Shown here one piece after another: positions 2,994-64,000 of a stretch of DNA of 64,000 nt. Positions within the stretch are counted from its first letter, which is position 1; every line of letters starts with the position of its first letter. Below the pieces are notes generated by a model. That model was not told the origin of the DNA and did not search any database. It worked only from the letters and a program-made list of their open reading frames with translations. Origin of the DNA: Candidatus Magasanikiibacteriota bacterium (GTDB lineage Bacteria; Patescibacteriota; Patescibacteriia; Magasanikbacterales; UBA922); contig DMXO01000004.1 in the NCBI GenBank assembly GCA_003482855.1, forward strand, positions 58,224-122,223, read 5' to 3'. The translations under genes and the position numbers were made by a program.

Positions 2994-4130
2994 ATGGTAA
3001 GTACTCGTTCAAATGGGACACAGCCGACTGGCCAACCCGTAAGATTTTATAAATTTGTTGCTCTTAGTTTTTTGGTTATTACTATAGTGTTGCTTGGTGT
3101 AGTCATATTCATGTCATCCAAGCGTGCTGACATCACCATAATCACACGTGCTGAACCTGTAGACGCGACAATGTCTGTAGATCTCGGGAGTACCAATGCA
3201 GTAGTATCTGGATTTGTCACGAGTACCTTTGTCGAGATGACCAAGAATTTTAGTCCAGAAGGGACAAAGACCGAAGAAGGCACAGCAGAAGGAGTGGTGA
3301 CGCTTTATAATGATACTGATGTCGCGCAACCGCTTGTTGCAACAACTCGACTTTTGACCTCAGATGGTGTTTTGTTTAGATTGAAGAGCGCAATCACTGT
3401 ACCTGCACAAGGTACAATACAGGCAAATGTATATGCAGATAAGGCTGGTACAGGTAGTGATATCGGACCTGCGAGTTTCACTTTGCCTGGTTTGCGAGAA
3501 GACAAACAGACATTGATATACGCAAAAAGTGAGATGACTATGAGTGGTGGCACCAGGAGTATAGGCGTGTTGAGCCAAGATGATGTATCAAAAGCAGAAA
3601 AAATATTGCTTGAAGAATTAAAGAAGAAAGCATCAGAAGATATGACAGCTCTGTATCCTGATAAGGGCGCCTTGTTTGAGGTTGCACAGTATGCATTTGA
3701 ACATGATGCAGAACTTGGTGTAGAGACGAGCCTTTTCAATCTGACAGGCAAGGCAACTGTGGTTGGCGTTTTTTATGACAAAGATAAAATTAATACCTAT
3801 GCTCAAGGTATATTGGAAAAGCAGGTAGTGAGCAATAGCGAGGTACTTCAATCTGTCCAAGATGCGCCCACAGCAGTCATAGCCAATTATGATATGGAGC
3901 GTGGGCAAGCCACATTGACGGTCACACATACAGGCTTCGTAGATATAGATCCCAATAGCAAAGAATTACAAAAGATAATGTTTTTTGGGAAAACAGAAGA
4001 TGAGGTACGTAGATACGTGATGTCACTCAATCATGTACAGGGCGTAGAAATGCATTTTAGACCATTGTGGAATAGGAGTGTTCCTCATGTGGCTAGTCAT
4101 GTAAATATTGTTGTGAGGCAGGTTGAATAG
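2994..4130 (+). CDS. Membrane-anchored hypothetical protein (N-terminal TM helix, large extracytoplasmic domain)
   Basis: 378-aa ORF; single N-terminal hydrophobic segment; directly downstream of pilB. Confidence 0.5.
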   Translation: MVSTRSNGTQPTGQPVRFYKFVALSFLVITIVLLGVVIFMSSKRADITIITRAEPVDATMSVDLGSTNAVVSGFVTSTFVEMTKNFSPEGTKTEEGTAEGVVTLYNDTDVAQPLVATTRLLTSDGVLFRLKSAITVPAQGTIQANVYADKAGTGSDIGPASFTLPGLREDKQTLIYAKSEMTMSGGTRSIGVLSQDDVSKAEKILLEELKKKASEDMTALYPDKGALFEVAQYAFEHDAELGVETSLFNLTGKATVVGVFYDKDKINTYAQGILEKQVVSNSEVLQSVQDAPTAVIANYDMERGQATLTVTHTGFVDIDPNSKELQKIMFFGKTEDEVRRYVMSLNHVQGVEMHFRPLWNRSVPHVASHVNIVVRQVE

Positions 4131-4417
4131 ATTTTAAGCACTTGAGCACTGTAGCACCAAAGCATGTGAGTAATTTGACATAAATTATCTTGTATTATAA
4201 GATGTACATATCAGCGATTGATGCGTCTACCAAACGCATGCCCACATAAGGTTTCTCTTGAACTAAGCTGATAGACATTTAATGAGTTAAACATCTGGGT
4301 GGAAACGTCCCCAAGGACCCCGGTGCATGATTTTGAACGATGAGTTTGAAGTTGTGCATCGGGGCTTTTGATTTAATTTAGAATTTTAAATTAAGAATTA
4401 AAAATTAATTTATTTAT
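4131..4417 (+). promoter_or_regulatory. Long structured leader of thrS; candidate T-box-like riboswitch with intrinsic terminator
   Basis: 287-nt non-coding leader; GGGTGGAAAC motif resembles T-box core (AGGGUGGNACCGCG); 10-bp stem CCCCGGTGCA/TGCATCGGGG (one G-U) followed by CTTTTGATTT just before thrS ATG. Confidence 0.4.
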
Positions 4418-6199
4418 ATGAAAGAAAATAATAACTTGGAAGCAATGCGCCATTCATGCGAACACGTGCTGACGATGGCCATGTTGCGTATATGGGGGAA
4501 CAAAATTGATGCGGCAATGGGTCCTGCGACGGATGATGGCTTTTATTTTGACTTTGATTCTGACATCAAAATAACTGAAGAGGATTTTTCTAGAGTTGAA
4601 AAGGAAATGGCAAACATTATCAAAGAAAATTTGCCTATTGTTAAAGATGAAATGACCGTATCAGAAGCGAGAGAATTTTTTAATAAAAATATATATAAAG
4701 GGAATGCATATAAACATGAATGGCTTGATGAAATTGAAGGACGCGGGGAAAAAGTGAGTGTGTATTGGATGGGTAAGAAAGATGGAGATATCCCCGATAC
4801 GTTTGTTGATATTTGTGCTGGTCCTCACCTGGAGTCGACGGGTAAAATTGGTGCATTTAAATTGCTAAAAACTGCCGGTGCATACTGGCATGGTGATGAA
4901 AAAAATAAAATGTTGACTAGAATTTATGGTACGGCGTTTGAAAATCAAGAAGAATTGGATAGTTACTTGAATATGCTTGAAGAGGCCAAGAAACGGGATC
5001 ACAAAAAATTAGGCAAAGAACTCGATCTATTTACTTTTTCTGATTTGGTGGGAGGAGGTTTACCTTTGTGGACGCCAAAAGGAACCCTGCTTCGAAATAC
5101 GTTGGATAATTTTGTATGGGAACTGCGCCAAGCTAAAGGTTACCAAAAAGTGACGATTCCACATATTACAAAAAAGGATTTGTACGAAACAAGCGGACAT
5201 TGGGCAAAGTTTTCAAATGACTTATTTAAAATTCAAACAAGAGAAGGTCATGAATTTGCGATGAAGCCCATGAATTGCCCGCATCATACGCAAATTTATG
5301 CACATGTTCCTCGCAGTTATCGCGATTTACCACAGCGTTATGCAGAGACAACCATGGTGTATAGAGATGAACAGACAGGCGAATTGAATGGACTGTCTCG
5401 GGTACGGTGTATTACTCAAGATGACGCCCATGTGTTTTGTCGTGAGTCACAATTGAAGGACGAATTCTATGCAATTTGGGATATTATCGAGACATTCTAT
5501 GCTGCGTGTGGTTTCCCTGCTCTAAAGATTCGGTTATCTTTGTCTGATCCCGAACATATGGAGAAATATATGGGAAGTAGAGAGCAGTGGGATAAAGCGG
5601 AAAGTCAATTGCGAGAGTTTATTTCTGATAGAGGAGCTGCATTTTTTGAGGCAAAAGGTGAGGCTGCTTTTTATGGCCCAAAAATTGACTTCATGGCAAA
5701 AGATTCCCTTGGTCGAGAATGGCAAGTCGCTACTATTCAGGCAGACAGAAGCATGCCAAAGAGTTTTGATTTATTTTGTAACAATGAACAGGGAGAACAA
5801 GAACGAATTGTGATGATACACGCAGCAATCATGGGTTCGATTGAACGCTTTTTGTCGATTTTGATTGAACATTATGGTGGGGCATTTCCTTTGTGGATCT
5901 CTCCGGTTCAAGTTCATTTTGCTCCGGTATCTGCAAAACATGTTGAAGGGACGAAAAAGTTAGCCGAAGAGTTTTCCCAGCTTGGTATTCGCATTGCAGT
6001 TGACGACGCAGATGAGACGGTCGGTAATAAAGTCCGTAAAGCTGTAGCACAAAAAGTTCCATACATTGTTGTCGTGGGCGACAAAGAAATTGCAGGAGAG
6101 GACTGGATGATACGCGTTCGTGGGGTTGAGAAACAAGAGAAGATGAGTAAGGACGAATTTGTGAAGAAAGTAATGGAAGAAATTAAAGAGAGAAAGTAG
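4418..6199 (+). CDS. thrS: Threonine--tRNA ligase
   Basis: 593 aa; class II aaRS motifs, MNCPHH zinc site, TGS/second-additional-domain and anticodon-binding C-terminus. Confidence 0.9.
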   Translation: MKENNNLEAMRHSCEHVLTMAMLRIWGNKIDAAMGPATDDGFYFDFDSDIKITEEDFSRVEKEMANIIKENLPIVKDEMTVSEAREFFNKNIYKGNAYKHEWLDEIEGRGEKVSVYWMGKKDGDIPDTFVDICAGPHLESTGKIGAFKLLKTAGAYWHGDEKNKMLTRIYGTAFENQEELDSYLNMLEEAKKRDHKKLGKELDLFTFSDLVGGGLPLWTPKGTLLRNTLDNFVWELRQAKGYQKVTIPHITKKDLYETSGHWAKFSNDLFKIQTREGHEFAMKPMNCPHHTQIYAHVPRSYRDLPQRYAETTMVYRDEQTGELNGLSRVRCITQDDAHVFCRESQLKDEFYAIWDIIETFYAACGFPALKIRLSLSDPEHMEKYMGSREQWDKAESQLREFISDRGAAFFEAKGEAAFYGPKIDFMAKDSLGREWQVATIQADRSMPKSFDLFCNNEQGEQERIVMIHAAIMGSIERFLSILIEHYGGAFPLWISPVQVHFAPVSAKHVEGTKKLAEEFSQLGIRIAVDDADETVGNKVRKAVAQKVPYIVVVGDKEIAGEDWMIRVRGVEKQEKMSKDEFVKKVMEEIKERK

Positions 6200-22423: not shown

Positions 22424-22440
22424 ATATTTATGGTTGGAAT

Positions 22441-22475: not shown

Positions 22476-22478
22476 TGC

Positions 22479-28220: not shown

Positions 28221-28380
28221 TTAAGCATCCCTGTCTATGTTTGTTGGTGCCCAAATGCTGTAGTGCTTGCGTGCTACAGAGTAGTGATACTGTAGCATTT
28301 TTTGCTAAAATAAGCAATCCATTTTGAGATTGGAAGATGTATGTATTTGTGGTATACTTATCATATATTATTTTACCATT

Positions 28381-45660: not shown

Positions 45661-45665
45661 AAAAT

Positions 45666-47132: not shown

Positions 47133-47225
47133 AATGTAAGTATTTATAAGCATATTATAGTATATTTATATAATTTTGTCAATATTTCACAGTTTTTGTA
47201 ATGATTTCATTACAAAAATGTACAT

Positions 47226-52512: not shown

Positions 52513-52616
52513 ATTTTTGTCCCCATTAAATTTATATGATATACTATATATATCATATTTTTATTATCTATTTTGTTAGATTATTTTTCTATATAATTTA
52601 AATTAATTATATTTTT

Positions 52617-55600
52617 ATGATAAAAAAACATCTGAAAGAAATGAAACTATACTATATAGTTTCATTAGCTTCGTCTTCTTTGCTCGTGGGCATATACACT
52701 GTGCTCATGTTTGGCTATATTTCAGTGCACGCGGGGACAAGTCAAGATGGGTCATTTACTATCACTCCAGTCACCTCGACCTATGACAATCTCATAGGAG
52801 CTGATAACACGCGATGGACATTTACTGCGACGACAACAGCAGATTTGGTCCGGGGTGATGTGGTGCAATTTCAATTTCCAACGGTCATGCAGGCAGAACC
52901 GTTTGAAGTAAGTAGCGCGTCAGTTGTTTCTTCAGACAATATTACCCTTTATGAAAGCCTTGCCAATTCACAAAACACAGAGTTATTGACAAATGGAAAT
53001 TTTGAATCAACAACAACAACATACACGCTGTCTAGCTGGTCAGTCACCACTATGGGACCGCCTCCTGTTTCTGCTGGCGCCTCTACTGGCAGGTCAGTTG
53101 ATCCACGTGGGGGTTCGTATGCTTTTGAATTTACAGTTCCTACCAATCCAGCTGGCACTGGCTATGGATTAATGCAATCATATTCTGGCCTGACAGGCGG
53201 AGGTTCGTATACAGGATCATTGTATGCAAAAAGTGCAGATTCTGGTTCTGTGTGTATATCATATGTCAGCGATGATTTTTCAGAGATATATAACTTTACT
53301 TTGTCTTCCTGGGTTTCTTTTGCAGGCTTAAATGGAGATACCATGTCATGTAGTGGCGTACTCAGTGCGACGTATGCGGCAGTAACATTTAGTGCAGTTA
53401 CTGCGTCGTCAAGCGGCCAGATGGTTGCCGTAGTTGCTGGTAGTGGAACTAGTGGCGGAGAACAGATTATTATTGATGATTTTTCACTTGTGCTCGATGG
53501 CGGGGGCGATGCAGCACAGAATGGCGGGCTTGAAACGTGGACAGGCCAGGATGTACCTACTAGTTGGACAGATGATTCAGAAGACAATTCAAGCCGCAAT
53601 ATATCTACAACTACGGTGCATGGTGGACAGTATTCCTTGGTATTACAAACAGGCCAGACTGGTACTAAAGCGATAACATATCAAGTGCTCACTGGCTTGA
53701 CTCCAGGGGCAACCATTGATGCAAGTGTATATGAATATGATACCAATGGACAAGGTTATTTCATCGTACTCAATAATCAAGTTGAATCACAGACACAAGC
53801 ATGGAATTTCGTCACGAACCAATGGGATGCTAATACAAGCACTATGGGTAATTTGTGGGGCGGTGGTAATTATAGTTTGGCTTTGAGTTCGCGAAATACA
53901 TGGGCGCAGTTTAGCGAAAGTATGACAGCGCCAGCTAATGGCATTATGTACATATATCTCGTAACTGGCACAACAAATGGTTCTGTAGTATATATTGATG
54001 ATGCATCTTTTTTGGTAGGTAGTCAGAGTGGTAGTGATGTTGCGGGAGTTGGTAATAATTATATAAATGACGTACCTATTGTATATGGTATTGTGAGTAG
54101 CACTATTGCTGCGGGAACGCAGATCAGTGTGACTGTAGGTGGCATAGATAACGCGGCTGGGAATTTACAAAATATGCAAGATTTAGAGTTTCAGATTCTT
54201 GCGGGCACACCGAGCAATAGTGAACAGCCATGGAGTACATTGAGTAGTGAAAAATTCAATAAGACAGCGACTCATTCTCTGGTACGTGCAGGGACAGCGA
54301 TTGTTTCAGATTCAAATTCATCTATTATGTCGAGCTCATATGAGACAAGCGCGACGAATGTGGATTATACATTTGGGTTTACCGCATCGAGCAGTCTCGC
54401 AGTAGGGGACAAAATTGTGGTGAATTTTCCCGCAGAATATAGTATGAATGGTCTTACCGTAAGTACGACTGCAGAAATAAATAGCAAGGGGACTACAATT
54501 GGAAGTTTCGCTACATCTACAAGTTTTGGACGTAATCAGATCATCTTGACGCTTGCGGCCACGTCGACAGATCCAGGCGATGCAATCACGGTGACTATTG
54601 GCGATCTCACCAATCCCAGCACCGCAGATGTATATAGGCCATTCTATATATATACTGCAAAAGCAAATGGCGGTCTTGTGGATGGTTCATATTATGGGTT
54701 TGAACAGAGTGATTATGCGACAGTGTCACCAGTCGATACTGTTCATATCGGAGGTACCAATGATATTGTTATAACCGTGCAAAAAACGACGACCACAACT
54801 ACGCGCATATTGGAAGGCGCAGAGCTGGCGCAGGTGCGTGTGGGTGTAGGGTGTCCAGACAAAGGATTTTTTGTGGGAAGCAGATTTTTGGATAGCAATG
54901 CTCAGGTGACATTTAATAATTTACTTGATTGCAATTACATGATAGGCGTTGAACCTTTGGATGGTACTGGTGACGCGTCATTTTTCCAAAATTATTTACC
55001 CCCCTCTTTCAAACAAGTGCCTGCGTTTGGAGATCAATCTGTGTCTACCACGCTTACGTTTGGCACGCCAGATGGGTTCATAGTAGGTGCGCTTACCAAT
55101 GCGGTTGTAGGACAAGAGATAGAGGTACGGGCCTACACAACAGAATATGAATCATGGGGTGAAGTATTTACTGCTACAAATTATGTAACACCTGGTGTAA
55201 ACGGAAGTAATGTTGGCTATTTTAAGATTCCTGTAAAAAGTGGTTCAAATTGGAAATTGAGTGTAGAGAGCCAGTCTCTTGATGGGGGCACATCAAAATT
55301 TTGGCCACCAACCATACCATCGGTATATGTTGCGCAGGCAGGCACAGTCAATATAGGATCCCATGCATATATAGAGGCAAATAAAGATTTGGTAGTGACG
55401 CTCGCAAAAGTTGGCGGTGGATCTGTGCAAGATGCGTGTGTTGGTGTGAAGTCAAATTCAGCAAGTATGTTTATGCCACCGCGTGATGTTGTGTGTCAGC
55501 CAAATGGTACTGGCGGGAACACAGGAAAGTATGTATTTAAGGTTCCCCAAGGTTCAGTGCTCATCAATGTCATGCGTCCGGGTAAAGGAATGCCGGAAGA

Positions 55601-58600
55601 ATATCCTATAGCTGTCGGGGCAAGCGGTGCGACAAAGACAATTTATTTATCAGCTCCAGACACATATATTTCAGTTTCTGTGGTAGATGGAGAGGGCAAT
55701 GCAATATCTGGCGCTCCTATATTTGCTCAAGGGTCTAATGGTTTTTCTCAAGACGTGACCGGCTCTGGTGGTACCACAACGCTCTTCATTGCTGCAGGTA
55801 CTTATCGCCTCGAAGGATTTGCGCCAGGTCTTGGACCGCTTACGTCATGGACAGAAAATTCGGGCACGGCAAATGATGGTACAGTTGTAGTTTCGTCTGG
55901 TGTAAATCCAAGTGTTACCGCTACAGTCAATACAGCAAACTTTAGACAAGTGACAGGTACTGTGACCGCAGGTGGATCTGGTATCGGGGGCGTAAAGATC
56001 GGAGCTCGTGGCATCAATGGTACAAGTGGTGGTAATGGCACAGAGACAAATTCCAATGGCACGTATATGTTGTATTTACCAACAGCAGGTTATTATGAAG
56101 TTGGCGGTTGGTCAGATGAGACAGGCGGCCTGCCTCCACAAAATGTCAATGTGACGAATGGTAATGCAACAGCAAATTGGTCACTCAATGGACAAGGCAC
56201 TCTTCGATTTGAAATTTCAAACGCATCCAACATTACCCCATTGTTTGGAGGAGCTTTTGATCCATCTACTGGTCGTGGCAATGGTACAGAATCATGGACA
56301 ACAAGCGGTACGACCAAGATAGCACAATTTAATTTGTCTGCTGGCTCATATGAGGCGCATGTTGGCTCTCCTATGATAGGTCCTCTTGTTGAGGGAGAGA
56401 CAGTGACTGTGACTCAAGGTGAGACAGTTATTGTTACGGCGGATGTAAGTTCTCTAGGCGAATTGGTCACATTGAGTGGTACAGTGACTGATGGCACTAA
56501 TCCATTGTTAGGGGTCACTGTGTGGGCGTCACGTATCAATGGCCCAGGACATTATGAAACAGAAACAGATGATAACGGAGATTATAGTCTCAATGTGCCC
56601 GATCTTCGTACGTATATGGTTGGGGCTCGTGAGCTCGGCTATATATCTGCAAGCGGTGATGTAGAAGTTTCTGTAGATGGCAATACAACCGAGGATTTTA
56701 CTATGACTGAGGCAGCTTCCACTATCACTGGACAAGTGACTTCAGGTGGCGTTTCAGTATCGTGTGTATGGATAGACGCACGTAAGATAGTTAGTGGTTT
56801 TGATGCATGGGCAGGGGCTCCGACAGACAATGGAGGTAATTATGAGTTGAGTGTGGATAATGGCACATGGATATTGTATGCCAATGGACCAGATGGATAT
56901 AGAAAACAGGTGGGACAGACAACCGTGACTGATGAAAGTCGAACAGTAAATATCAGCCTTAGTGATTTTAATGGGTGTGTATTTAAACAGCCGGATTTAC
57001 ACGCAATTAGTGATGTAAGTGGCGGACAGGTAGCTACAGAAAAAGTTACCTTAGATATACCTGCAAATGCTTTGGGCACAAGCCAGAGTACGGTAAGTGT
57101 CTCTGTGTCAGATGCAGATTTGATAGTGGGTTCTTCAGGAGCTACCCCGCTCGCAACTTCCACAATTACACTCGAAGCTACTGATAGTAATGGACAATCA
57201 GTAAGTTCTTTTAATCAATGTATTAATATTACTCTGTCATACGATGAAACGAGTTTGCCTATAGGATTTGATGAATCAGAATTGCAGTTTGGATATTGGG
57301 ATAGTACTGAAGGACGATGGAAGACAGAAGCAGCTACAGTCAACACAACTCTCGACACTATGACTGCATGTGTAAATCACTTTACTGATTTCGGACCAGT
57401 GTTACCAGGTGTGCCAGACGCACCATCTAGTGTATCTGCCACAGCTGCATCGGCCAGTCAAATCAATCTTACTTGGGATGCAGAAGAGAGTGCTGATTCA
57501 TACATCATTTATCGCAACACAACAGGTAACACGACATTTACCGCAGGTGACCAAATTGGTACTACGTCAGATACGAGCTATAGCGATACTGCGCTTAGTG
57601 CACAAACAACATATTATTATGAAGTCGCAGGAGTCAATGAAAATGGCGAAGGATTCAATTCTGATACTGCCAATGCAACTACTCAAGCGGCCGCTGTAAG
57701 CAATAGTCCTGGTAGTTCGGGGAGCGGGTCTACTCCAGCCAATCCTCCTCAGCTTCCTGCCGGTGAGAAAGGCATTGTGATAAATAATGGTGATGTGCTT
57801 ACTTCATCTCGCAGCGTTACACTCACATTGCATGCGCTCAATGCGACACAAATGGCGATTTCAAATTCGTCAGATTTTACCGGTACATCATTTATTGCAT
57901 ACACCGAAAGTTATGTCTGGTCAGTCACCCATGGCGATGGAGAAAAGATGGTGTATGTGAAATTTAGAGCCGCTGACGGAAGCACTCTCGTTGTGCAGGA
58001 TATGATTGAACTTACAGGTCAGGGATTTGACCAATATTCTGCCAAGGCAAATTGTCCAATTGATACAGAAAAAGCATACAAATATGTAGGTAACTCTGGA
58101 GTTTACTTTATTACGAGCGATTGTACCAAACGTCCATTCAAGGATGAGGCAAAATTTTTCTCTTATTTTAATTCTTGGTCACATGTCAAAATGATATCCA
58201 AAGATACATTGGATGATATACCTCTTGACACGCTCGGCTTCATGCCATGGGGTCCGCTTCATGATCCCAAATATGGCGCAATTGTGAAGACAGTCACGAG
58301 CCCAAATGTGTATTTACTCTTGGGCAATCAGCGCCATCTCATTGTGAGTGATACTATTTTCACAGCACTTGGGTATGCATGGAACTGGATTGAGGATGTA
58401 GCTTCGTCTCTTATAGACAAGTACAGTGACGCAGACCCAATTGGTAGTTCACAGACACATCCAAATTATGTCTTGATCAAATATCCTAATTCACCACATG
58501 TTTATAGATTGGAACCAGATCCTGTAGATGCCACAAAACAGATTAAACGTAAAATTAAAAATGAGCGTGTTTTTGAACAAAACAAGTTTAGGTGGGATCG

Positions 58601-58655
58601 AGTAGTGGAGGTGGATGCTGAAGAAATATATTCAGATGGCGAATCACTAGAATAA
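52617..58655 (+). CDS. Giant (2012-aa) secreted/cell-surface protein with Ig-like/carbohydrate-binding beta domains and a fibronectin type III domain near the C-terminus
   Basis: N-terminal signal/TM anchor; Thr/Ser/Gly-rich beta-repeat composition; FN3 signature (QINLTWDAEESADSYIIYRN...YYYEVAGVNENGEG). Confidence 0.7.
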   Translation: MIKKHLKEMKLYYIVSLASSSLLVGIYTVLMFGYISVHAGTSQDGSFTITPVTSTYDNLIGADNTRWTFTATTTADLVRGDVVQFQFPTVMQAEPFEVSSASVVSSDNITLYESLANSQNTELLTNGNFESTTTTYTLSSWSVTTMGPPPVSAGASTGRSVDPRGGSYAFEFTVPTNPAGTGYGLMQSYSGLTGGGSYTGSLYAKSADSGSVCISYVSDDFSEIYNFTLSSWVSFAGLNGDTMSCSGVLSATYAAVTFSAVTASSSGQMVAVVAGSGTSGGEQIIIDDFSLVLDGGGDAAQNGGLETWTGQDVPTSWTDDSEDNSSRNISTTTVHGGQYSLVLQTGQTGTKAITYQVLTGLTPGATIDASVYEYDTNGQGYFIVLNNQVESQTQAWNFVTNQWDANTSTMGNLWGGGNYSLALSSRNTWAQFSESMTAPANGIMYIYLVTGTTNGSVVYIDDASFLVGSQSGSDVAGVGNNYINDVPIVYGIVSSTIAAGTQISVTVGGIDNAAGNLQNMQDLEFQILAGTPSNSEQPWSTLSSEKFNKTATHSLVRAGTAIVSDSNSSIMSSSYETSATNVDYTFGFTASSSLAVGDKIVVNFPAEYSMNGLTVSTTAEINSKGTTIGSFATSTSFGRNQIILTLAATSTDPGDAITVTIGDLTNPSTADVYRPFYIYTAKANGGLVDGSYYGFEQSDYATVSPVDTVHIGGTNDIVITVQKTTTTTTRILEGAELAQVRVGVGCPDKGFFVGSRFLDSNAQVTFNNLLDCNYMIGVEPLDGTGDASFFQNYLPPSFKQVPAFGDQSVSTTLTFGTPDGFIVGALTNAVVGQEIEVRAYTTEYESWGEVFTATNYVTPGVNGSNVGYFKIPVKSGSNWKLSVESQSLDGGTSKFWPPTIPSVYVAQAGTVNIGSHAYIEANKDLVVTLAKVGGGSVQDACVGVKSNSASMFMPPRDVVCQPNGTGGNTGKYVFKVPQGSVLINVMRPGKGMPEEYPIAVGASGATKTIYLSAPDTYISVSVVDGEGNAISGAPIFAQGSNGFSQDVTGSGGTTTLFIAAGTYRLEGFAPGLGPLTSWTENSGTANDGTVVVSSGVNPSVTATVNTANFRQVTGTVTAGGSGIGGVKIGARGINGTSGGNGTETNSNGTYMLYLPTAGYYEVGGWSDETGGLPPQNVNVTNGNATANWSLNGQGTLRFEISNASNITPLFGGAFDPSTGRGNGTESWTTSGTTKIAQFNLSAGSYEAHVGSPMIGPLVEGETVTVTQGETVIVTADVSSLGELVTLSGTVTDGTNPLLGVTVWASRINGPGHYETETDDNGDYSLNVPDLRTYMVGARELGYISASGDVEVSVDGNTTEDFTMTEAASTITGQVTSGGVSVSCVWIDARKIVSGFDAWAGAPTDNGGNYELSVDNGTWILYANGPDGYRKQVGQTTVTDESRTVNISLSDFNGCVFKQPDLHAISDVSGGQVATEKVTLDIPANALGTSQSTVSVSVSDADLIVGSSGATPLATSTITLEATDSNGQSVSSFNQCINITLSYDETSLPIGFDESELQFGYWDSTEGRWKTEAATVNTTLDTMTACVNHFTDFGPVLPGVPDAPSSVSATAASASQINLTWDAEESADSYIIYRNTTGNTTFTAGDQIGTTSDTSYSDTALSAQTTYYYEVAGVNENGEGFNSDTANATTQAAAVSNSPGSSGSGSTPANPPQLPAGEKGIVINNGDVLTSSRSVTLTLHALNATQMAISNSSDFTGTSFIAYTESYVWSVTHGDGEKMVYVKFRAADGSTLVVQDMIELTGQGFDQYSAKANCPIDTEKAYKYVGNSGVYFITSDCTKRPFKDEAKFFSYFNSWSHVKMISKDTLDDIPLDTLGFMPWGPLHDPKYGAIVKTVTSPNVYLLLGNQRHLIVSDTIFTALGYAWNWIEDVASSLIDKYSDADPIGSSQTHPNYVLIKYPNSPHVYRLEPDPVDATKQIKRKIKNERVFEQNKFRWDRVVEVDAEEIYSDGESLE

Positions 58656-58671
58656 AAATATATATAAAAAA

Positions 58672-58700
58672 AAGGCCCGGCACAGAACCGGGTCTTTTTA
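58672..58700 (+). terminator. Terminator GCCCGG-cacagaa-CCGGGTCTTTTT
   Basis: Read directly after the stop of the 2012-aa gene. Confidence 0.6.
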
Positions 58701-58750
58701 TCCACTTTTTGACTCAACTGAGTCATTTTTTTGTGGTATACTATACATAC

Positions 58751-61700
58751 ATGAAAACAGAGATTTGGGACAAGATTCCTTATCACTTTTATAAGTTAAT
58801 AAGTGTTTTTTTTGTTGCTCTATTATTTGTATTAGGGTCGTTTTATTTTACTGATGCATACACGTGGGGTTCTATCCAGACAGTAGATGCTGGAGTTGGA
58901 GATATGATGTATATGAATCATCGTGGCGGAGTGCTTTTTGATAATAGTTTAGCTGTGATGGTGACTTATCACGATGCAATAGAACATGTACAATATTTCA
59001 AATATGCACCTAACCCTGCCAGTGTTTCATGGACCACTGTTGCTCTAGAGGATTATGCAGGTGGAAGTGGCTATGGATACAATTCGTCCATACAGATGAA
59101 CCCAAATGATGGTTCTATTTTAGTTGTATACAATATCCAGCATGCTGATGCGATCACCTATCTCAAATATGCCAAGTGCAATGCAAATTTTGATGGCTCT
59201 AATTGTACAGACATATCTGATTGGACTATTGGTACATTGGATGATTCTAATCCAGCAATTACCTATTTCCAAGATTTAGAGTATGATGATTTTAATGATC
59301 GATGGGGTATTCTCTATTTTGGAGGGACAAGTTTGACAGAACTGTATTATAAGACTTCGGTAACTGGCACAGAGTCTTTGGATAGCTGGACAACTCAGCG
59401 TACCCTGACATATGACCTTGGAAATTGGCCAGACGGATATCATCGCAATCTTGCTTTTGGGCCAAGTGGGCAGGCAGCCATTGGTGCTTTCAGAGCTTCT
59501 GGGGGAAACACGTGCCCCTTGGTACATCATTACAATGGGTCATCATGGACACAAAAAAGTGATTTTGAAAATTGTGCCGCACAAAATACGCCAGGTACGA
59601 GTGTTGGGTATGATAGTTCTGGCAATCTTCTTGTCGCATACATGAGAAAAGTGGATGGAACACCATATTGGGATTCATGGAAATACAGTGCGAGTACTTG
59701 GACAGACCTTGGTACTATAGAGGAGTCGGTGGATAATGAGGTTAACAATGGAGAAGGTGGTAGTCTAGTTCGTATGGCAAGTGGACATCTGTCTTATGTA
59801 TATTATACGAACTCATTTACTAGTTTTGTTTATACTATTCGCCATGTGGAATGGGATGGTTCCAATTGGGGGACCCCAGAGACAATAAAGGCCTCGGGTG
59901 GCCAAAAGTATAAAAATCCATTTCATGATATGAGTTATAATGATGGATTTGGCGTAGCTTTTTTTGATGATCAGGCGTCAGATATTTTGAATTTTGTATA
60001 TTCAGCCCCTCTCAATGTTGCTCCTACTCTTACAGATTTTTATCCTGCTCAGAATGTAGGATTTAACACGGTCACGGTTACTACCACGATTGCAGATGCA
60101 GATGGCGATATTACGAGTTCCACATTTCAGTATTCTTTGAACGGGACAGATTGGTCAAACGCGACCATCAGTTCTGTGACTCAAGTTGAAGCGGGGGACG
60201 GCGTGGTGACATCGGCAGGATCTTTGACAGATATTGACACAGACACAGATACAGACAATAGTGTGAATTTGACTATTGTATGGAACGCAGGAATTGACGC
60301 GCCAAATACCAATACGACGACTGCATATATACGTATGATACCCTATGATAGTACTACGAACGGAACTACGTATACATCCGCAGCATTTACTTTAGACACA
60401 CTTGATCCTACAGCCCCCGGAGCGCTCACCATGAACACCACGTCCACCAATTCAGTTATACTTAATTTTGGTAGTGCATCGAGTGACACGCATTTTTCTG
60501 AATACAAGATATTTTATAAAATAGGTTCATCGAGCGTGACCGAATCAGACACGGCATTTACTTCAAGTAGTGATATAAATCTCTCTGCTGAAAATTTTAA
60601 TGCCGCACTTACTACCTCTATTTCTTCGCTTGCGTCCAATACGCAATATGTAAACAATATATGGGCGTATGATACATTTGGCAATAGCGCGTCGTCGACT
60701 TCAGAATTAGCATTTTATACGCTTGCACCTACACCGACAAATGTCGCGACTACTTCGCTTGCTACGAGTTCCGCAGCATTTGATGTTGACACATTCAATA
60801 ATCATAACAGCGCGTCTTCAAGTTATTATTTTCGTGTTATTAAAACAGTAGATTTGTCAGAGGCAGGTAATTCTGGATGGCAGGCAGGGGACAATACATG
60901 GAGTATTTCAGGGTTGAGTGAACTGACTGGATATGAAGTATTTGCCCGATATAGAAATGGAGATGGTATCGAGACAGCTGAAGAAAGTCTGGTGTTTACG
61001 ACACTTGAAAGTGCGCCACTCGTACCTGCCATTACATCGGCGACAAGTACGGCATCAAATATCATACATATAATTCTTGACCCAAATGGCAATGCATCGA
61101 CCACGACATATCTCGTGCATGATTCAGTAGACAATGTATATTTGCAAGCAGGTATGACATGGAGCGTGGGAGAAGCATGGCTGTCCTATGAGCAGTTGGG
61201 AGAATTGTCTGGGATTAGTACGACAGGTTTGTCACCAAATACACAACATACTATAGAGGCAAAGGCAAAAAATGTTTCAGAAGAACAGACAGCGTATGGA
61301 TCTTCCCAAGGTGTATACACATTGGCCAACATTCCTCTGGCTCCGACGCTTACGGCCTCGAGTACGAGCATAATACATCTAGCTATTGGCACGAATTCAA
61401 ATCCAGATGCAACAGAATATGTATTGTGTCAGACAGGTGATGGTGCAACATGCGCATCCAATGGATATGTGCAAGCAGACGGGACTTTGGGTGCTTCTGA
61501 AATTTGGCGTTCATACACATTGTGGGGTGGTGCATCAGGGATAGATATTTCCGGACTTGTAGCAAACACGCAATATCAATTTTTGGTAAAAGCGCGGAAT
61601 GGGGATAATACAGAGACATCTTTGGGAACAGGCGCGAGTGCCTATACCTTTGCGTCAGCACCAACCTCAGTGAGTGCTTCAGTAGAAGGAAGCAACGTGA

Positions 61701-64000
61701 TTGTCTCATGGTCAGGGACAGCGAGTGCCTATTATGTAGAAGACAGTGCAAATGCAGGGACAAACTCAGGTTGGATTACTGCGACTTCATATACCTTTTC
61801 AAGTTTGAGTAATGGTTCATATACATTTCATGTAAAAGGAAAGAACGCGGCGGATGTGGATACTAGTTTTGTGAGCGCATCGAGCGTGGTAGTGAATGTA
61901 GGGAACCCATCTACCCCTCCGCCTCCGCCACCTCCTCCACCGCCCCTCTGTGTAGATGATACGTGTGATACATGTGATGACCCACCGTGTGATCCACCAC
62001 CAAGTGGGCTTATGAATATTGATAACAATGCTGCCTATGCCTTGTCAAGGTTTGTTACGTTATATTTTAATACGCAGTTTGTAAATCAATATGCCGTGTC
62101 AGTAGATCCAACATTTGCTGGCGAAAGTTTTCATCCTATTGTTCCATCATTACCCTTTACATTACCTGATGGTTATGGCAAAAAGACTGTCTACGCTCGG
62201 TTTATCAATCAGTACGGTACATATGATACATACGATGATATTGAGTTGGCCAAAGCATCCTGTCAAAATTATCCACCTGATTTTGTATCAGTGACGGATA
62301 TAGATGGTGACAATGTTCCTTTGGATGGTAAGGGGAATCTTCATGTTACCTATAACGTAAGCACATTGGATGTATATTTTGATTATCATGATTGCCCTTA
62401 TGATTATGATAGTTATCGTCTGTATATAAGTGACAAACCATTTTCAGATACGAATGAAGGTATTCTGTGGTCCTCTTGGAGTCTTTTTGGACAGCATGTT
62501 TTTGAAGACAAAAGATTAAATTTCCGGACAAATTTTTTCTACAATACAGTCAATTTGAAATTGGGGAAATTGCCAGAAACATTATATATGAGAATGCTTT
62601 TTACCCTCAAAGGGGAGCTGACATATGGCGATCCCATCTCAGTACATGTGGTTCCGATGTCCAATCAAGAATTTTGTAATTATTTTCCTGGAGAGCAATA
62701 TATTTCAGATAAGATGTATTTATTAGATTATCCTTTTCCTTTCATACCGGCTTTCACGTATAGCAAAATTTGTGTAGGAGACGAAGATACAGACCATGAT
62801 GGCATTATCAATAAATACGATAATTGTCCAACGACGCATAATCCTGATCAGAAAGATAATGATGGTGATGGCATGGGTGATGTCTGTGATTTGGATGAAA
62901 AGGATACTGATCAAGATGGTATTCCAGATAGTCAGGACAACTGTTTTGCTACATATAATCCGAATCAATCGGATGTGGATGGCGATGGTATGGGTGATGT
63001 TTGTGATGAGTGTATGCATGATCCTCAAAATGATTTCGATGGGGATAGGACGTGTGGCGATAAGGATAATTGTCCACTCGTATCAAATTTTGATCAACAA
63101 GATAGTGACACTGATAGTGTCGGTGACGCATGTGATGTGTGTCCAGGTGATGTACTTAATGACATAGATAAAGATGGTATTTGTGGTTTGATAGATATAT
63201 GTCCTTATGATTTAGACAACGACCAAGACAAAGACAGTATTTGTGGTGATGTAGATAACTGTGTTAGTACATATAATCCTGATCAAGCTGACGTCAATGG
63301 CAATGGCGTGGGTGATGTCTGTGATAAGCCACCAGCGGTTTGTGGTAATAATATTGTTGAACAAGGTGAGGATTGTGACGGATTTGCTACAGATAATTTT
63401 TATTGTAGTCTAAGTTGTAGACTTATCCAGATTATTCCAGATCCAATTTGTGGTAATGGGATTGTTGAACAAGGTGAAGTGTGTGATGACAGTAATATCG
63501 CCTCAGGTGATGGTTGTTCGCCTGCGTGCTCTCTCGAACAAACTGACCATATAGACACAACAGGTGATGAAACTACAAGAGACGGCCAATTGTTTTCTTT
63601 CACAGATGGTATCACTCACACGATTGCGCGTATCACACACAATATTGCTGAGTCAATTAAAACATTAGGACGTGCGGTAATTGATGTAGTGCCAGAATCA
63701 GTAAAAGCACTAGCACGCAACGTAGTACAGGCGGTTCAAAAAGTCATAGACAATCCACAAGTCGAAAAAATAAACGAGATATTTGTTGCTCCGACTCTCG
63801 TAGTTGTTGGAGCTGCAAATGTTGCAGTAGGATTCCAGTTGCCCAATATATTCGCATTTTTACGTTATATATTTGGTCAGCCTATTATGGCATTGCGTCG
63901 TCGCAAACAAAAGAAATGGGGTGTGGTGTACGACGCATTCACCAAACAACCTCTTGACTTAGCTACTATTCGTGTAGTTGATGCAGAAAAGGGGAATGTT
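58751..64000 (+). CDS. Second giant surface protein, partial (runs off window; >1740 aa), with FN3-like repeats, poly-Pro linker, thrombospondin type-3-like Ca-binding repeats and Cys-rich CGNGIVEQGE-C-D repeats
   Basis: Open frame from ATG 58751 to the window end with no stop (hence missing from the ORF track); DxDxDGxxDxxDNCP TSP3-like repeats at about 62790-63330; CGNxIVEQGExCD repeats at about 63330-63500. Confidence 0.7.
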   Translation, partial: MKTEIWDKIPYHFYKLISVFFVALLFVLGSFYFTDAYTWGSIQTVDAGVGDMMYMNHRGGVLFDNSLAVMVTYHDAIEHVQYFKYAPNPASVSWTTVALEDYAGGSGYGYNSSIQMNPNDGSILVVYNIQHADAITYLKYAKCNANFDGSNCTDISDWTIGTLDDSNPAITYFQDLEYDDFNDRWGILYFGGTSLTELYYKTSVTGTESLDSWTTQRTLTYDLGNWPDGYHRNLAFGPSGQAAIGAFRASGGNTCPLVHHYNGSSWTQKSDFENCAAQNTPGTSVGYDSSGNLLVAYMRKVDGTPYWDSWKYSASTWTDLGTIEESVDNEVNNGEGGSLVRMASGHLSYVYYTNSFTSFVYTIRHVEWDGSNWGTPETIKASGGQKYKNPFHDMSYNDGFGVAFFDDQASDILNFVYSAPLNVAPTLTDFYPAQNVGFNTVTVTTTIADADGDITSSTFQYSLNGTDWSNATISSVTQVEAGDGVVTSAGSLTDIDTDTDTDNSVNLTIVWNAGIDAPNTNTTTAYIRMIPYDSTTNGTTYTSAAFTLDTLDPTAPGALTMNTTSTNSVILNFGSASSDTHFSEYKIFYKIGSSSVTESDTAFTSSSDINLSAENFNAALTTSISSLASNTQYVNNIWAYDTFGNSASSTSELAFYTLAPTPTNVATTSLATSSAAFDVDTFNNHNSASSSYYFRVIKTVDLSEAGNSGWQAGDNTWSISGLSELTGYEVFARYRNGDGIETAEESLVFTTLESAPLVPAITSATSTASNIIHIILDPNGNASTTTYLVHDSVDNVYLQAGMTWSVGEAWLSYEQLGELSGISTTGLSPNTQHTIEAKAKNVSEEQTAYGSSQGVYTLANIPLAPTLTASSTSIIHLAIGTNSNPDATEYVLCQTGDGATCASNGYVQADGTLGASEIWRSYTLWGGASGIDISGLVANTQYQFLVKARNGDNTETSLGTGASAYTFASAPTSVSASVEGSNVIVSWSGTASAYYVEDSANAGTNSGWITATSYTFSSLSNGSYTFHVKGKNAADVDTSFVSASSVVVNVGNPSTPPPPPPPPPPLCVDDTCDTCDDPPCDPPPSGLMNIDNNAAYALSRFVTLYFNTQFVNQYAVSVDPTFAGESFHPIVPSLPFTLPDGYGKKTVYARFINQYGTYDTYDDIELAKASCQNYPPDFVSVTDIDGDNVPLDGKGNLHVTYNVSTLDVYFDYHDCPYDYDSYRLYISDKPFSDTNEGILWSSWSLFGQHVFEDKRLNFRTNFFYNTVNLKLGKLPETLYMRMLFTLKGELTYGDPISVHVVPMSNQEFCNYFPGEQYISDKMYLLDYPFPFIPAFTYSKICVGDEDTDHDGIINKYDNCPTTHNPDQKDNDGDGMGDVCDLDEKDTDQDGIPDSQDNCFATYNPNQSDVDGDGMGDVCDECMHDPQNDFDGDRTCGDKDNCPLVSNFDQQDSDTDSVGDACDVCPGDVLNDIDKDGICGLIDICPYDLDNDQDKDSICGDVDNCVSTYNPDQADVNGNGVGDVCDKPPAVCGNNIVEQGEDCDGFATDNFYCSLSCRLIQIIPDPICGNGIVEQGEVCDDSNIASGDGCSPACSLEQTDHIDTTGDETTRDGQLFSFTDGITHTIARITHNIAESIKTLGRAVIDVVPESVKALARNVVQAVQKVIDNPQVEKINEIFVAPTLVVVGAANVAVGFQLPNIFAFLRYIFGQPIMALRRRKQKKWGVVYDAFTKQPLDLATIRVVDAEKGNV

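What the first reader, a model, noticed from the sequence alone, without database searches (positions are those of the whole stretch)
52617..64000. Two consecutive giant surface proteins; the second carries thrombospondin-type-3 Ca-binding repeats, a P10 linker and Cys-rich CGNGIVEQGExCD repeats
More than 11 kb is devoted to two extracellular proteins of 2012 aa and >1740 aa (the latter truncated by the window). The domain mix (FN3, TSP3-like DxDxDG repeats, myxococcal-type Cys-rich repeats, poly-Pro) is characteristic of adhesins used by episymbiotic bacteria to attach to hosts. The C-terminal part (after 63600) contains hydrophobic segments that may anchor it.
Basis: partly seen in the sequence, partly recalled or inferred. 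Interest (0 to 1): 0.5.

Follow-up and report, generated by a model that had tools for sequence, protein, structure and literature searches.

The report
Two giant CPR surface proteins
Two adjacent 2,000-residue genes in a Candidatus Magasanikbacteria genome encode real, intact cell-surface proteins of a kind already known from these tiny bacteria, but the second ends in a conserved membrane module, not covered as a unit by the curated libraries searched, that thousands of related surface proteins share.

Summary
ORF1 (52617-58655, 2012 aa) and ORF2 (ATG 58751, off the window) are intact. An identical public contig completes ORF2 at 1981 aa. Exact copies occur in independent assemblies, annotated as hypothetical proteins of Candidatus Magasanikbacteria (CPR/Patescibacteria).

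Confirmed in ORF2: about five thrombospondin type-3 repeats (53 bits; thrombospondin-2/COMP at E 1e-28), two myxococcal Cys-rich repeats (TIGR02232, 43.7 bits) and the P10 linker. FN3 is solid in ORF1 and weak in ORF2.

New: the hydrophobic segments after 63600 open a ~330-aa C-terminal module. It has a DNPxVE motif, a hydrophobic stretch, an RRRKxKK cluster, a beta-sandwich, a helical hairpin and a second beta-sandwich. A profile search finds it in 1,901 50%-identity clusters (E<=1e-30), nearly always at the C-terminus of proteins with different ectodomains. Every named lineage but three is CPR. No Pfam or NCBIfam model covers it as a unit. Charge asymmetry and composition suggest the sandwiches are cytoplasmic; this is inferred, not shown.

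ORF1 has no membrane anchor. Its homologues end in peptidoglycan-binding domains.

Host adhesion is plausible but untested. I rate the proteins as ordinary for CPR and the anchor module as moderately novel.

The parts
52617..58655 (+). ORF1, 2012 aa, secreted giant protein (HAT03624.1, annotated hypothetical)
   Evidence: A 60% identical full-length orthologue (P0023) exists. A CPR family shares residues ~490-1700 at 36-50% identity.
52617..52733 (+). ORF1 N-terminal signal. The hydrophobic segment is residues 14-32, with a possible VHA|G cleavage site.
   Evidence: Hydropathy scan. Cleavage is inferred from the -3/-1 rule only; no SignalP was available.
52968..54062 (+). Two tandem ~180-aa modules, residues 118-299 and 300-482. 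Pattern NGxFE...IDDxS, jelly-roll/CBM-like.
   Evidence: The two halves are related (24% identity, E 3e-4). No Pfam hit. Present only in ORF1 and P0023. The fold assignment is an inference.
54084..57716 (+). ORF1 conserved beta-rich core. It includes CarboxypepD_reg at 56469-56708 and FN3 at 57417-57671.
   Evidence: 50.3 and 28.2 bits. One search gives the homologue coverage. One search gives the PDB Fn3-like match 3mpc.
57768..58016 (+). ~85-aa module (GIVINNG...VYVKF...). It resembles ORF2 residues 1086-1175; I take it to be Ig-like.
   Evidence: The similarity of the two motifs is by eye. A weak BLAST alignment (28% over 225 columns, E 4.6e-4) runs from ORF1 1602-1807 to ORF2 970-1174 and includes this stretch. 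No Pfam hit.
58017..58652 (+). ORF1 C-terminal domain of three ~55-aa repeats, with no membrane anchor. Candidate wall- or envelope-binding domain.
   Evidence: Shared at 45-48% identity with P0030 and P0031, where PG_binding_1 follows it. Similar repeats precede PG_binding_1 in P0026. No Pfam or PDB match. The AF2 model failed (pLDDT 46.5).
58674..58725 (+). Two terminator-like hairpins with T-runs in the 95-nt ORF1-ORF2 spacer
   Evidence: The number in the region does not exceed chance; only the position is suggestive.
58734..58742 (+). Extended -10-like element TGGTATACT, 8 nt before the ORF2 ATG. A similar TGATATACT lies upstream of ORF1.
   Evidence: Read from the sequence. Inference only.
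58751..64000 (+). ORF2, first 1749 of 1981 aa (HAT03625.1, annotated hypothetical)
   Evidence: P0001 is a full-length orthologue at 41-46% identity.
58862..60025 (+). ORF2 N-terminal ~390-aa domain. Six ~55-aa repeats are each anchored on an S-x-W motif (W94, 158, 213, 266, 317, 373). Propeller-like.
   Evidence: W94, W158, W317 and W373 are invariant in the three homologues. No Pfam or PDB sequence hit. The fold was not modelled.
60038..61906 (+). Array of about six Ig/FN3-like modules
   Evidence: fn3 at 19.1 and 17.6 bits per module; Y_Y_Y at 24.3. FN3-annotated homologues P0003, P0008 and P0010 align here.
61916..62005 (+). P10 linker plus a short Cys/Asp/Pro cluster (LCVDDTCDTCDDPPCDPPP)
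62006..62770 (+). ~90-aa module resembling ORF1 57768-58016 (residues 1086-1175), then a 165-aa region with no match (1176-1340)
62780..63325 (+). About five thrombospondin type-3 (Asp-rich, Cys-paired) repeats
63341..63541 (+). Two myxococcal-type Cys-rich acidic repeats (CGN[GN]IVEQGExCD)
63599..63766 (+). Amphipathic helical segment ending in the conserved DNPxVE motif. This is the start of the C-terminal module.
63770..63916 (+). Hydrophobic stretch H1/H2 (residues 1674-1715) followed by the basic cluster RRRKQKK
63917..64000 (+). Start of the first CarboxypepD_reg-like beta-sandwich. The rest of the module lies beyond the window at L001:20738-21517: sandwich 1, helical hairpin, sandwich 2.
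   Evidence: (module HMM, E 1e-46 on the window part and 8.5e-152 on the full protein). (62.4 bits, 2 stretches).

Best explanation
Two separately transcribed genes of a Candidatus Magasanikbacteria (CPR) chromosome each encode a ~220-kDa exported, acidic, beta-rich cell-surface protein.

ORF2 is a membrane-anchored fibre. After a Sec-type signal, its parts run from the distal end inwards:
- a propeller-like head;
- about six Ig/FN3-like stalk modules;
- a proline linker with a small Cys cluster;
- a further ~90-aa module (probably Ig-like) and an unassigned domain;
- a Ca-binding-type thrombospondin type-3 'wire';
- two disulfide-type Cys-rich repeats.

ORF2 is held in the cytoplasmic membrane by a conserved ~330-aa C-terminal module. 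In order, the module contains an amphipathic helix with a DNPxVE motif, a hydrophobic stretch, an RRRKxKK stop-transfer cluster, transthyretin/CnaB-like beta-sandwich 1, a tight helical hairpin and beta-sandwich 2. I consider it most likely that both sandwiches sit on the cytoplasmic face. In that case the module is a transmembrane tether, and possibly a coupling device, not only an anchor.

ORF1 has no membrane anchor. It is probably retained through its C-terminal three-repeat domain. That domain sits next to, or in place of, peptidoglycan-binding domains in homologues.

The likely role of both proteins is contact with other cells or surfaces, or envelope architecture.

Shown: ORF integrity, taxon, domain identities, module conservation, distribution and fold.
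Inferred: signal cleavage, module topology, wall binding by ORF1, adhesion.
For: - ORFs and completion. Independent exact copies.
- Taxon: RpoB identical to Ca. Magasanikbacteria entries.
- TSP3 and Cys-rich repeats.
- N-terminal hydrophobic segments.
- Module conservation: the profile of three C-termini hits 8,321 representative proteins, 1,901 of them at E<=1e-30. The match is end to end and almost always C-terminal (median 11 aa after it). Heads range from 1 to ~3,060 aa, median 685.
- 109 of 143 members with a head longer than 150 aa have an N-terminal hydrophobic segment.
- AF2 model: two beta-sandwiches with pLDDT above 90 and a confident helical hairpin.
- Foldseek: SdrD B, CnaB and carboxypeptidase-D transthyretin-like domains.
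- Topology, from 163 modules. Net charge is -1.4 before H1 and +4.7 after H2. It is +3.1 and +3.4 on the two flanks of the H3/H4 hairpin. This indicates an odd number of crossings in the first unit and a hairpin in the second.
- Composition. The sandwiches score cytoplasm-like in 97-98% of 120 members. Their own heads score ectodomain-like in 98%.
- Taxonomic range: of 61 GTDB loci, 34 carry a CPR lineage name.
- Synteny: the relative's locus has an ORF1-like gene, two extra giant genes (one also ending in the module), the ORF2 orthologue and GAPDH.
- ORF1 homologues end in PG_binding_1.
- Literature on CPR large extracellular proteins and adhesins: PMC4736985, PMC10633639.
Against: - No experimental or expression data exist for either protein.
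- Every structural neighbour of the module's sandwiches (SdrD B, CnaB, carboxypeptidase D, NOMO-like) is extracytoplasmic. That argues against a cytoplasmic location.
- The H1/H2 region is modelled with low confidence (pLDDT 34-61). It could be a hairpin, which would put everything outside.
- Some module tails are Pro-rich, like wall-spanning segments.
- The propeller assignment rests on motif spacing only.
- The ORF1 C-terminal domain gave no usable model and no database match.
- Magasanikbacteria have no cultivated representative, so 'host' is hypothetical.
- Some GTDB loci carry non-CPR labels: many 'uncultured Gammaproteobacteria', plus Binatia, Vicinamibacterales and Pseudomonadales. I suspect these are default labels or binning errors, but I did not verify that.
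Confidence: 0.6

Rival explanations
1. The module has an all-outside topology. Both hydrophobic stretches (38 and 36 residues, each with a central Pro or turn) would be helical hairpins dipping in from outside. The two CnaB/transthyretin-like sandwiches would then be membrane-proximal extracellular stalk or wall-contact domains.
For: All structural and Pfam neighbours of the sandwiches are extracytoplasmic. The H1/H2 junction is only about 4 weakly polar residues. The module is an apparent tandem duplication, and its second unit is clearly a hairpin. Some C-terminal tails are Pro-rich.
Against: This topology places about 12-13 conserved K/R outside and about 0.2 inside, a strong violation of the positive-inside rule. 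The charge asymmetry across the first unit (-1.4 against +4.7) differs from the symmetric second unit. The sandwich composition is cytoplasm-like.
Confidence: 0.3
2. ORF1, and possibly ORF2, are structural envelope or S-layer-type lattice proteins rather than host adhesins.
For: The ORF1 core is conserved at 36-50% identity in the Magasanikbacteria-labelled and unlabelled homologues P0024-P0029, and at 26-31% in proteins labelled Parcubacteria, Kaiserbacteria and Uhrbacteria. Homologues are non-covalently wall-bound via PG_binding_1. ORF1 is acidic, Ser/Thr/Gly-rich and Cys-poor. A terminator-like hairpin follows ORF1.
Against: No SLH or known S-layer domain was found. The N-terminal CBM-like modules are lineage-specific, as expected of a binding tip. 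The locus gains and loses giant genes between relatives.
Confidence: 0.25
3. The proteins capture or process glycans. The propeller-like head and the CBM-like modules would bind or cleave polysaccharides for nutrient scavenging rather than mediate attachment.
For: ORF2 has S-x-W repeats, some in a DGSxW context reminiscent (from memory) of BNR/Asp-box repeats. ORF1 has two CBM-like jelly-roll-pattern modules. Glycan-targeting domains were proposed for essential Saccharibacteria surface proteins (PMC10633639).
Against: No glycoside hydrolase, lyase or CBM family scores in Pfam or NCBIfam. No catalytic motif was identified. The fold assignments are untested.
Confidence: 0.12
4. The long ORFs are assembly artefacts or decaying pseudogenes.
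For: None found. One relative (L007) does show a module gene split by a frame change.
Against: Exact full-length proteins occur on multiple independent assemblies. Orthologues of similar length (2023 and 2189 aa) exist at 41-60% identity. I estimate that a 2012-codon open frame in ~42% GC DNA has negligible chance probability.
Confidence: 0.01

Closest known systems
Thrombospondin / COMP type-3 repeat 'calcium wire' (Pfam PF02412), and bacterial TSP3-repeat surface proteins such as Myxococcus MtsC (NCBIfam NF047638)
   Same: The Asp-rich DxDxDGxxDxxDNCxxxxNxxQxD units with paired Cys score 53 bits. They align to thrombospondin-2 and COMP structures at E about 1e-28. The repeats are presumably extracellular and Ca-binding.
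   Different: Only the repeat is shared. The MtsC model scores 95.5 against a 350-bit cutoff, and there is no MYXO-CTERM. There is no thrombospondin C-terminal lectin-like domain.
Myxococcal cysteine-rich acidic repeat (TIGR02232 / DUF4215) proteins, and the large Cys-rich extracellular proteins of Peribacteria (PMC4736985)
   Same: Two repeats pass the TIGR02232 cutoff. The phylogenetic setting (CPR), the size class and the proposed attachment role are the same.
   Different: ORF2 has only two such repeats and is not very Cys-rich overall (1.8% Cys).
Gram-positive MSCRAMM-type adhesins (e.g. SdrD): N-terminal ligand-binding region, B-repeat/CnaB stalk, C-terminal anchor
   Same: The overall logic is head, then stalk, then C-terminal anchor. 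The module's sandwiches are structurally closest to SdrD B / CnaB / transthyretin-like domains.
   Different: There is no C-terminal LPXTG sortase signal. The anchoring is by an integral-membrane module, and the sandwiches lie after the first membrane segment. The SdrD NCBIfam model scores 9.7 against 2500 bits.
WxL-cluster surface proteins of Firmicutes (WxL-interacting protein, DUF916 / WxLIP_PGBD)
   Same: 25 of 61 other module-bearing genes sit directly downstream of a ~320-aa protein. It has a weak WxLIP_PGBD match, a C-terminal TM and a basic tail.
   Different: The match is below the Pfam cutoff (24.6 < 27.3). This gene pair is not next to ORF2 in the window.

Membership tests
Thrombospondin type 3 repeat (PF02412) | Profile score above the gathering cutoff; repeated Asp-rich motif with paired Cys | tested here: met
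   53.1 bits against 25, in 3 stretches. Five D[NI]C...N..Q.D units. PDB thrombospondin-2 and COMP at E about 1e-28.
Thrombospondin type 3 repeat (PF02412) | Ca2+ binding | not testable with these tools
   Needs recombinant protein with ITC or 45Ca overlay.
Myxococcal cysteine-rich acidic repeat (TIGR02232) | Score above the cutoff; CxxxxxExGExCD-type repeat | tested here: met
   43.7 bits against 20.8. Two copies at residues 1531 and 1567. Pfam DUF4215 alone is below its cutoff (19.1 < 27).
Fibronectin type III (PF00041) | Score above the gathering cutoff | tested here: met
   ORF1: 28.2 bits against 25, residues 1601-1685. PDB Fn3-like 3mpc at E 1.9e-6.
Fibronectin type III (PF00041) in ORF2 | Individual modules score above the cutoff | tested here: inconclusive
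   The whole-protein sum is 26.0 against 25 with no stretch passing alone. Of six segments scanned, two hit fn3 (19.1 and 17.6 bits) and one hit Y_Y_Y (24.3).
MtsC cell-cell cohesion MYXO-CTERM protein (NF047638) | Equivalog score >= 350 and a MYXO-CTERM sorting signal | tested here: not met
   95.5 bits, from the TSP3 repeats only. The C-terminus is the module, not MYXO-CTERM.
Omp28-related selenoprotein (NF045500) | Score >= 200 | tested here: not met
   98.1 bits, from the TSP3 repeat region only.
Sortase-anchored LPXTG surface proteins | C-terminal LPXTG motif, then a hydrophobic segment, then a basic tail | tested here: not met
   No LPXTG in ORF2. The only LPTAG in ORF1 is internal, at residue 1154.
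RTX / T1SS giant adhesins (LapA/SiiE type) | GGxGxD nonapeptide repeats and a C-terminal T1SS signal | tested here: not met
   No GGxGxD in either protein.
CarboxypepD_reg (PF13620) beta-sandwich | Score above the cutoff; transthyretin-like fold | tested here: met
   ORF1: 50.3 bits. ORF2 module: 62.4 bits in 2 stretches. AF2 sandwiches have pLDDT above 90 and match the carboxypeptidase D transthyretin-like domain and CnaB.
Peptidoglycan-binding PG_binding_1 (PF01471) proteins (ORF1 homologues) | PF01471 domain present | tested here: not met
   Absent from ORF1 and P0023. Present in P0024, P0030 and P0031.
CPR C-terminal membrane module (defined here; no curated family covers it) | End-to-end match: DNPxVE, hydrophobic stretch, RRRKxKK-WG, sandwich 1, hairpin with conserved Pro and His, basic cluster-WG, sandwich 2, at the protein C-terminus | tested here: met
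   ORF2 matches at E 8.5e-152 over model positions 5-367. Pfam and NCBIfam match nothing beyond the sandwiches.
CPR C-terminal membrane module (defined here; no curated family covers it) | Membrane topology (sandwiches cytoplasmic) | tested here: inconclusive
   Charge and composition favour a cytoplasmic location. The fold neighbours favour outside.

The most novel reading that the evidence does not exclude
The ~330-aa C-terminal module is a Patescibacteria-wide transmembrane display and coupling device that I could not find described. It tethers hundreds of different giant ectodomains to the membrane and places two transthyretin-like beta-sandwiches in the cytoplasm. There they could bind a cytoplasmic partner for sorting, clustering at the host-contact pole, or outside-in signalling. 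It would be a CPR functional counterpart of sortase/LPXTG or PEP-CTERM systems, built on a different principle.
Probability: 0.3. Interest if true: 0.7.

Novelty: new variant of a known kind. Interest (0 to 1): 0.42.

Why it matters
How CPR/Patescibacteria build and anchor the surface structures that contact other cells is largely unknown outside a few cultivated Saccharibacteria.

The two genes themselves add only another example of giant CPR surface proteins. Tracing ORF2 past the window exposes something broader. It is a sharply conserved C-terminal membrane module, shared by at least ~1,900 sequence clusters, that carries very different ectodomains.

If it is a general anchoring or coupling device, it would provide:
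- a sequence handle to list the surface-exposed proteome of uncultivated CPR genomes;
- a defined target for topology, partner and localisation experiments.

Tried and rejected
I used the C-termini of P0001, P0006 and P0003 instead.
- The search for related loci with the 28-sequence alignment had no usable conserved stretch. A 6-sequence alignment worked.
- AF2 of the ORF1 C-terminal domain gave pLDDT 46.5. The model is unusable, so I ran no fold search on it.
- The afdb50 fold library was unavailable.
- Sequence searches of the PDB with the ORF2 N-terminal domain and the ORF1 C-terminal profile found nothing meaningful.
- BLAST self-comparison found no internal repeats in either protein. ORF1 against ORF2 gave only a weak FN3/Ig match.
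- Pfam found nothing for ORF1 residues 41-494, ORF2 38-425, ORF2 1086-1340 or ORF1 1701-2012.
- I looked for diversity-generating-retroelement-style template/variable repeats in the window and found none.
- 'Module-only' small proteins were rejected as evidence of an independent function. The best case, P0062 in L007, looks like a gene split by a frame change.
- Literature searches found no paper that links PF13620 / CarboxypepD_reg with CPR.
Full report
OBSERVATION

ORF1 runs from 52617 to 58655 on the + strand and encodes 2012 aa. The next frame is open from 58622 to the end of the window. Its first ATG is at 58751, with an alternative GTG at 58733, so 1749 residues lie in the window.

An exact-sequence look-up of ORF1 returned a 23-kb Logan contig (L001). 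It has no mismatch with window 43180-64000 over 20,821 nt. It completes ORF2 at 1981 aa, followed by a GAPDH gene.

Both proteins occur letter for letter on several independent assemblies from NCBI, JGI, ENA and Logan:
- ORF1 is HAT03624.1.
- ORF2 is HAT03625.1, on five contigs, the longest 358 kb.
Both are annotated 'hypothetical protein [Candidatus Magasanikbacteria bacterium]'.

The window's RpoB is identical to Magasanikbacteria entries OGH91941.1 and HAT03614.1. The long ORFs are therefore real and intact, and they belong to a CPR/Patescibacteria chromosome. The surrounding genes are housekeeping: rpoB/rpoC, pdxS/pdxT, yebC and ruvC.

DOMAIN CLAIMS

- Thrombospondin type-3 repeats are confirmed. 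Pfam TSP_3 scores 53.1 bits against a cutoff of 25. Thrombospondin-2 and COMP structures match at E about 1e-28. About five D[NI]C...N..Q.D units lie between residues 1344 and 1525.
- The Cys-rich repeat passes NCBIfam TIGR02232 (43.7 bits against 20.8). Two CGN[GN]IVEQGExCD copies are present. Pfam DUF4215 alone is below its cutoff.
- The P10 run is at residues 1056-1065 and is followed by a small Cys/Asp/Pro cluster.
- FN3 is solid in ORF1 (28.2 bits; PDB 3mpc). In ORF2 it is weak. The summed score is 26.0 bits. Of six segments scanned, two hit fn3 (19.1 and 17.6 bits) and one hit Y_Y_Y (24.3).
- MtsC and Omp28-selenoprotein models are hit only through the TSP3 repeats and stay far below their cutoffs.
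- At the DNA level the only repeats are the TSP3 and Cys-rich units.

ANATOMY OF ORF2

ORF2 starts with an N-terminal hydrophobic segment at residues 16-34, with a possible TDA|Y cleavage site (inference). Its parts then follow in this order:
- A ~390-aa domain with six ~55-aa repeats anchored on S-x-W (W94, 158, 213, 266, 317, 373). Four of these Trp are invariant in the three homologues. I read this as propeller-like, but it has no Pfam or PDB sequence match and was not modelled.
- About six Ig/FN3-like modules.
- The P10 linker with its Cys cluster.
- A ~90-aa module that resembles one in ORF1 and that I take to be Ig-like. The match is by eye; a weak BLAST alignment (E 4.6e-4) includes it.
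- An unassigned 165-aa region.
- The TSP3 repeats and the two Cys-rich repeats.
- The C-terminal module.

If the signal is cleaved, the layout is head, then stalk, then Ca-binding segment, then membrane anchor. That is the geometry of classical adhesins.

THE C-TERMINAL MODULE

This is the main new result. ORF2 residues ~1617-1981 begin at window 63599 and extend beyond the window. They align with the C-termini of:
- the full-length orthologue P0001 (2189 aa, 41-46% identity);
- the otherwise unrelated giant proteins P0006 (SdrD_B/CLIPPER ectodomain) and P0003 (3451 aa).

A profile of those three C-termini was searched against 1.84 billion representative proteins. It hit 8,321 proteins, 1,901 of them at E<=1e-30. 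The ~330-aa module matched end to end.

Among the 164 best members:
- The module is almost always terminal. The median is 11 residues after it. Longer tails are low-complexity and lack further hydrophobic segments.
- The preceding 'head' ranges from 1 to ~3,060 residues, with a median of 685.
- 109 of 143 members with a head longer than 150 aa have an N-terminal hydrophobic segment.

A word-indexed search and a scan of GTDB genomes place the module in many CPR lineages. These are Magasanik-, Uhr-, Falkow-, Buchanan-, Parcu-, Nomura-, Pace-, Curtiss-, Peregrini-/Peribacteria and WWE3. In the GTDB scan, 34 of 61 loci carry a CPR lineage name. One Falkowbacteria contig carries three copies within 24 kb. 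Some loci carry other labels: many 'uncultured Gammaproteobacteria', plus Binatia, Vicinamibacterales and Pseudomonadales, and one protein is labelled Kapabacteria. I suspect these are defaults or binning errors. One such 'Gammaproteobacteria' record is a 1.23-Mb chromosome. I did not verify this.

Pfam and NCBIfam recognise only the two sandwiches, as generic CarboxypepD_reg (62.4 bits). They have no model for the unit. I found no paper that links this domain with CPR.

STRUCTURE AND TOPOLOGY OF THE MODULE

AlphaFold2 on a 28-sequence alignment used the P0001 C-terminus as target, which is 65% identical to ORF2's. It gave two beta-sandwiches with pLDDT above 90, a confident helical hairpin between them, and two low-confidence helices before the first sandwich. 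Foldseek matched the sandwiches to SdrD B, CnaB and SpaA pilin domains and to the transthyretin-like domain of carboxypeptidase D.

Over 163 modules the pattern is very regular:

| Element | Model positions | Feature |
|---|---|---|
| Amphipathic helix ending in DNPxVE | up to ~64 | net charge of the last 15 residues -1.4 |
| First hydrophobic stretch (H1/H2) | 65-102 | uncharged; conserved Pro68, Arg92, Gln97-Pro98 |
| Basic cluster, then WG | 103-109 | RRRKxKK; net +4.7 over positions 103-117 |
| Sandwich 1 | ~111-209 | pLDDT above 90 |
| Basic flank | 216-230 | net +3.1 |
| Second hydrophobic stretch (H3/H4) | 231-266 | tight S-P-N turn; conserved His259 |
| Basic flank, then WG | 267-281 | net +3.4 |
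| Sandwich 2 | ~279-363 | pLDDT above 90 |

The second unit has basic flanks on both sides, as expected of a hairpin inserted from the cytoplasm. The first unit is acidic on one side and strongly basic on the other, as expected of an odd number of crossings.

As an independent heuristic I trained a composition score on this window's housekeeping proteins against its two ectodomains. It calls the sandwiches cytoplasm-like in 97-98% of 120 family members. It calls their own heads ectodomain-like in 98%.

I therefore favour, at about 65-70%, a topology in which ORF2 crosses the membrane once after DNPxVE and both sandwiches are cytoplasmic. The counter-argument is that every structural relative of these sandwiches is extracytoplasmic and the H1/H2 model is poor. 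The all-outside double-hairpin topology therefore remains a live rival (about 30%).

ORF1

ORF1 has an N-terminal hydrophobic segment at residues 14-32, with a possible VHA|G cleavage site. Two related ~180-aa modules follow, with a jelly-roll/CBM-like NGxFE...IDDxS pattern (24% identity, E 3e-4; no Pfam hit).

The core is conserved and beta-rich (residues ~490-1700; CarboxypepD_reg 50.3 bits). It is shared at 36-50% identity with P0024-P0029 and at 26-31% with proteins labelled Parcubacteria, Kaiserbacteria and Uhrbacteria. After it come FN3, the ~85-aa module that resembles ORF2's, and a C-terminal domain of three ~55-aa repeats.

There is no C-terminal hydrophobic segment, LPXTG or RTX motif.

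In homologues the core is followed by PG_binding_1 (P0024). In P0030 and P0031 the same three-repeat domain is followed by PG_binding_1, and similar repeats precede it in P0026. I infer that ORF1 is retained by non-covalent binding to the wall or envelope. The domain has no database match and its AF2 model failed (pLDDT 46.5).

LOCUS

A 95-nt spacer with two terminator-like hairpins separates the genes, and each gene has an extended -10-like TGnTATACT upstream. The number of terminator-like sites does not exceed chance in the region, so this is suggestive only.

In the closest relative the syntenic interval holds four giant genes:
- an ORF1 orthologue (60% identity);
- a 1062-aa FN3 protein;
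- a 1201-aa LamG/TSP3 protein that also ends in the module;
- the ORF2 orthologue.
GAPDH follows at 63% identity. The interval therefore behaves as a variable surface-protein island.

COMPARISON AND VERDICT

Large extracellular, partly Cys-rich proteins with myxococcal-repeat similarity were described in CPR Peribacteria and proposed to act in attachment (PMC4736985). Tn-seq in a cultivated Saccharibacterium showed that multiple adhesins are needed for epibiotic growth (PMC10633639).

The proteins themselves are new members of a known kind.

The element that departs from known anchoring schemes (sortase/LPXTG, MYXO/PEP-CTERM, SLH, T1SS retention) is the conserved C-terminal module. It is widespread in CPR and lacks a curated family. 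It may place folded domains in the cytoplasm.

I rate overall interest as moderate (0.42). The upside depends on the module's topology and partners.

Noticed in passing
L014-L019, L022-L024, L026, L027, L031, L036, L038, L041, L043-L046, L051, L052, L056, L059, L061, L065 (about 300-2200 in each locus): In 25 of 61 GTDB loci, a conserved gene lies 2-3.5 kb upstream of the module match, on the same strand. It encodes a ~320-aa protein with a signal, a weak WxLIP_PGBD (DUF916-like) match at 24.6 bits (below the cutoff), a C-terminal TM and a basic tail. In 13 of these loci a ~240-aa secreted beta-rich protein with no Pfam hit accompanies it. The arrangement recalls Firmicute WxL surface-protein clusters. 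It is not present next to ORF2.
   Followed up: partly
L029, L030, L055 (Falkowbacteria CAVZGV010000003.1, 296-320 kb): Three module-bearing genes lie within 24 kb of one contig. In L002 two of four consecutive giant genes end in the module. Module genes therefore cluster.
   Followed up: no
L007 34..3831 and 3584..5179: A 1265-aa ORF and the module-bearing 531-aa ORF overlap by 250 nt in different frames. The apparent 'module-only' protein P0062 is probably a giant gene split by a frameshift, either real or an assembly error.
   Followed up: partly
window 58734-58742 and about 52535-52545: Both giant genes have a TGnTATACTATA extended -10-like element upstream. For ORF2 it ends only 8 nt before the ATG, which would give a leaderless or near-leaderless mRNA.
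   Followed up: no
window 22479-23687 (-), with overlapping ORFs on both strands at 21917-23441: A radical-SAM/4Fe-4S gene sits in a 2-kb stretch of 51% GC, against about 40% for the window, next to tRNA-Ser(CGA) at 21755-21845. It may have been acquired horizontally.
   Followed up: no
window 44179-47153 (-): Two tandem ~495-aa paralogues each carry only the PEP-utilising mobile domain at the C-terminus. One also has an N-terminal Cro/C1 HTH. This is an unusual architecture.
   Followed up: no
window 49126-49644 (-): A small (172-aa) leucine-rich-repeat protein lies between a B12-binding radical-SAM gene and pdxT/pdxS.
   Followed up: no
window 1197-2945, 24522-25871, 28324-30279: Other envelope-related genes are in the window: a type II/IV secretion ATPase (T2SSE, probably for type IV pili), a Wzy_C O-antigen-ligase-like protein, and a 651-aa SpoIID-domain protein with an Ig-like domain.
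   Followed up: no
record titles (e.g. L011, OZ246405.1, a 1.23-Mb chromosome): Many module loci come from MAGs labelled 'uncultured Gammaproteobacteria'. Their genome and contig features look CPR-like, so the label is probably a submission default rather than real taxonomy.
   Followed up: no
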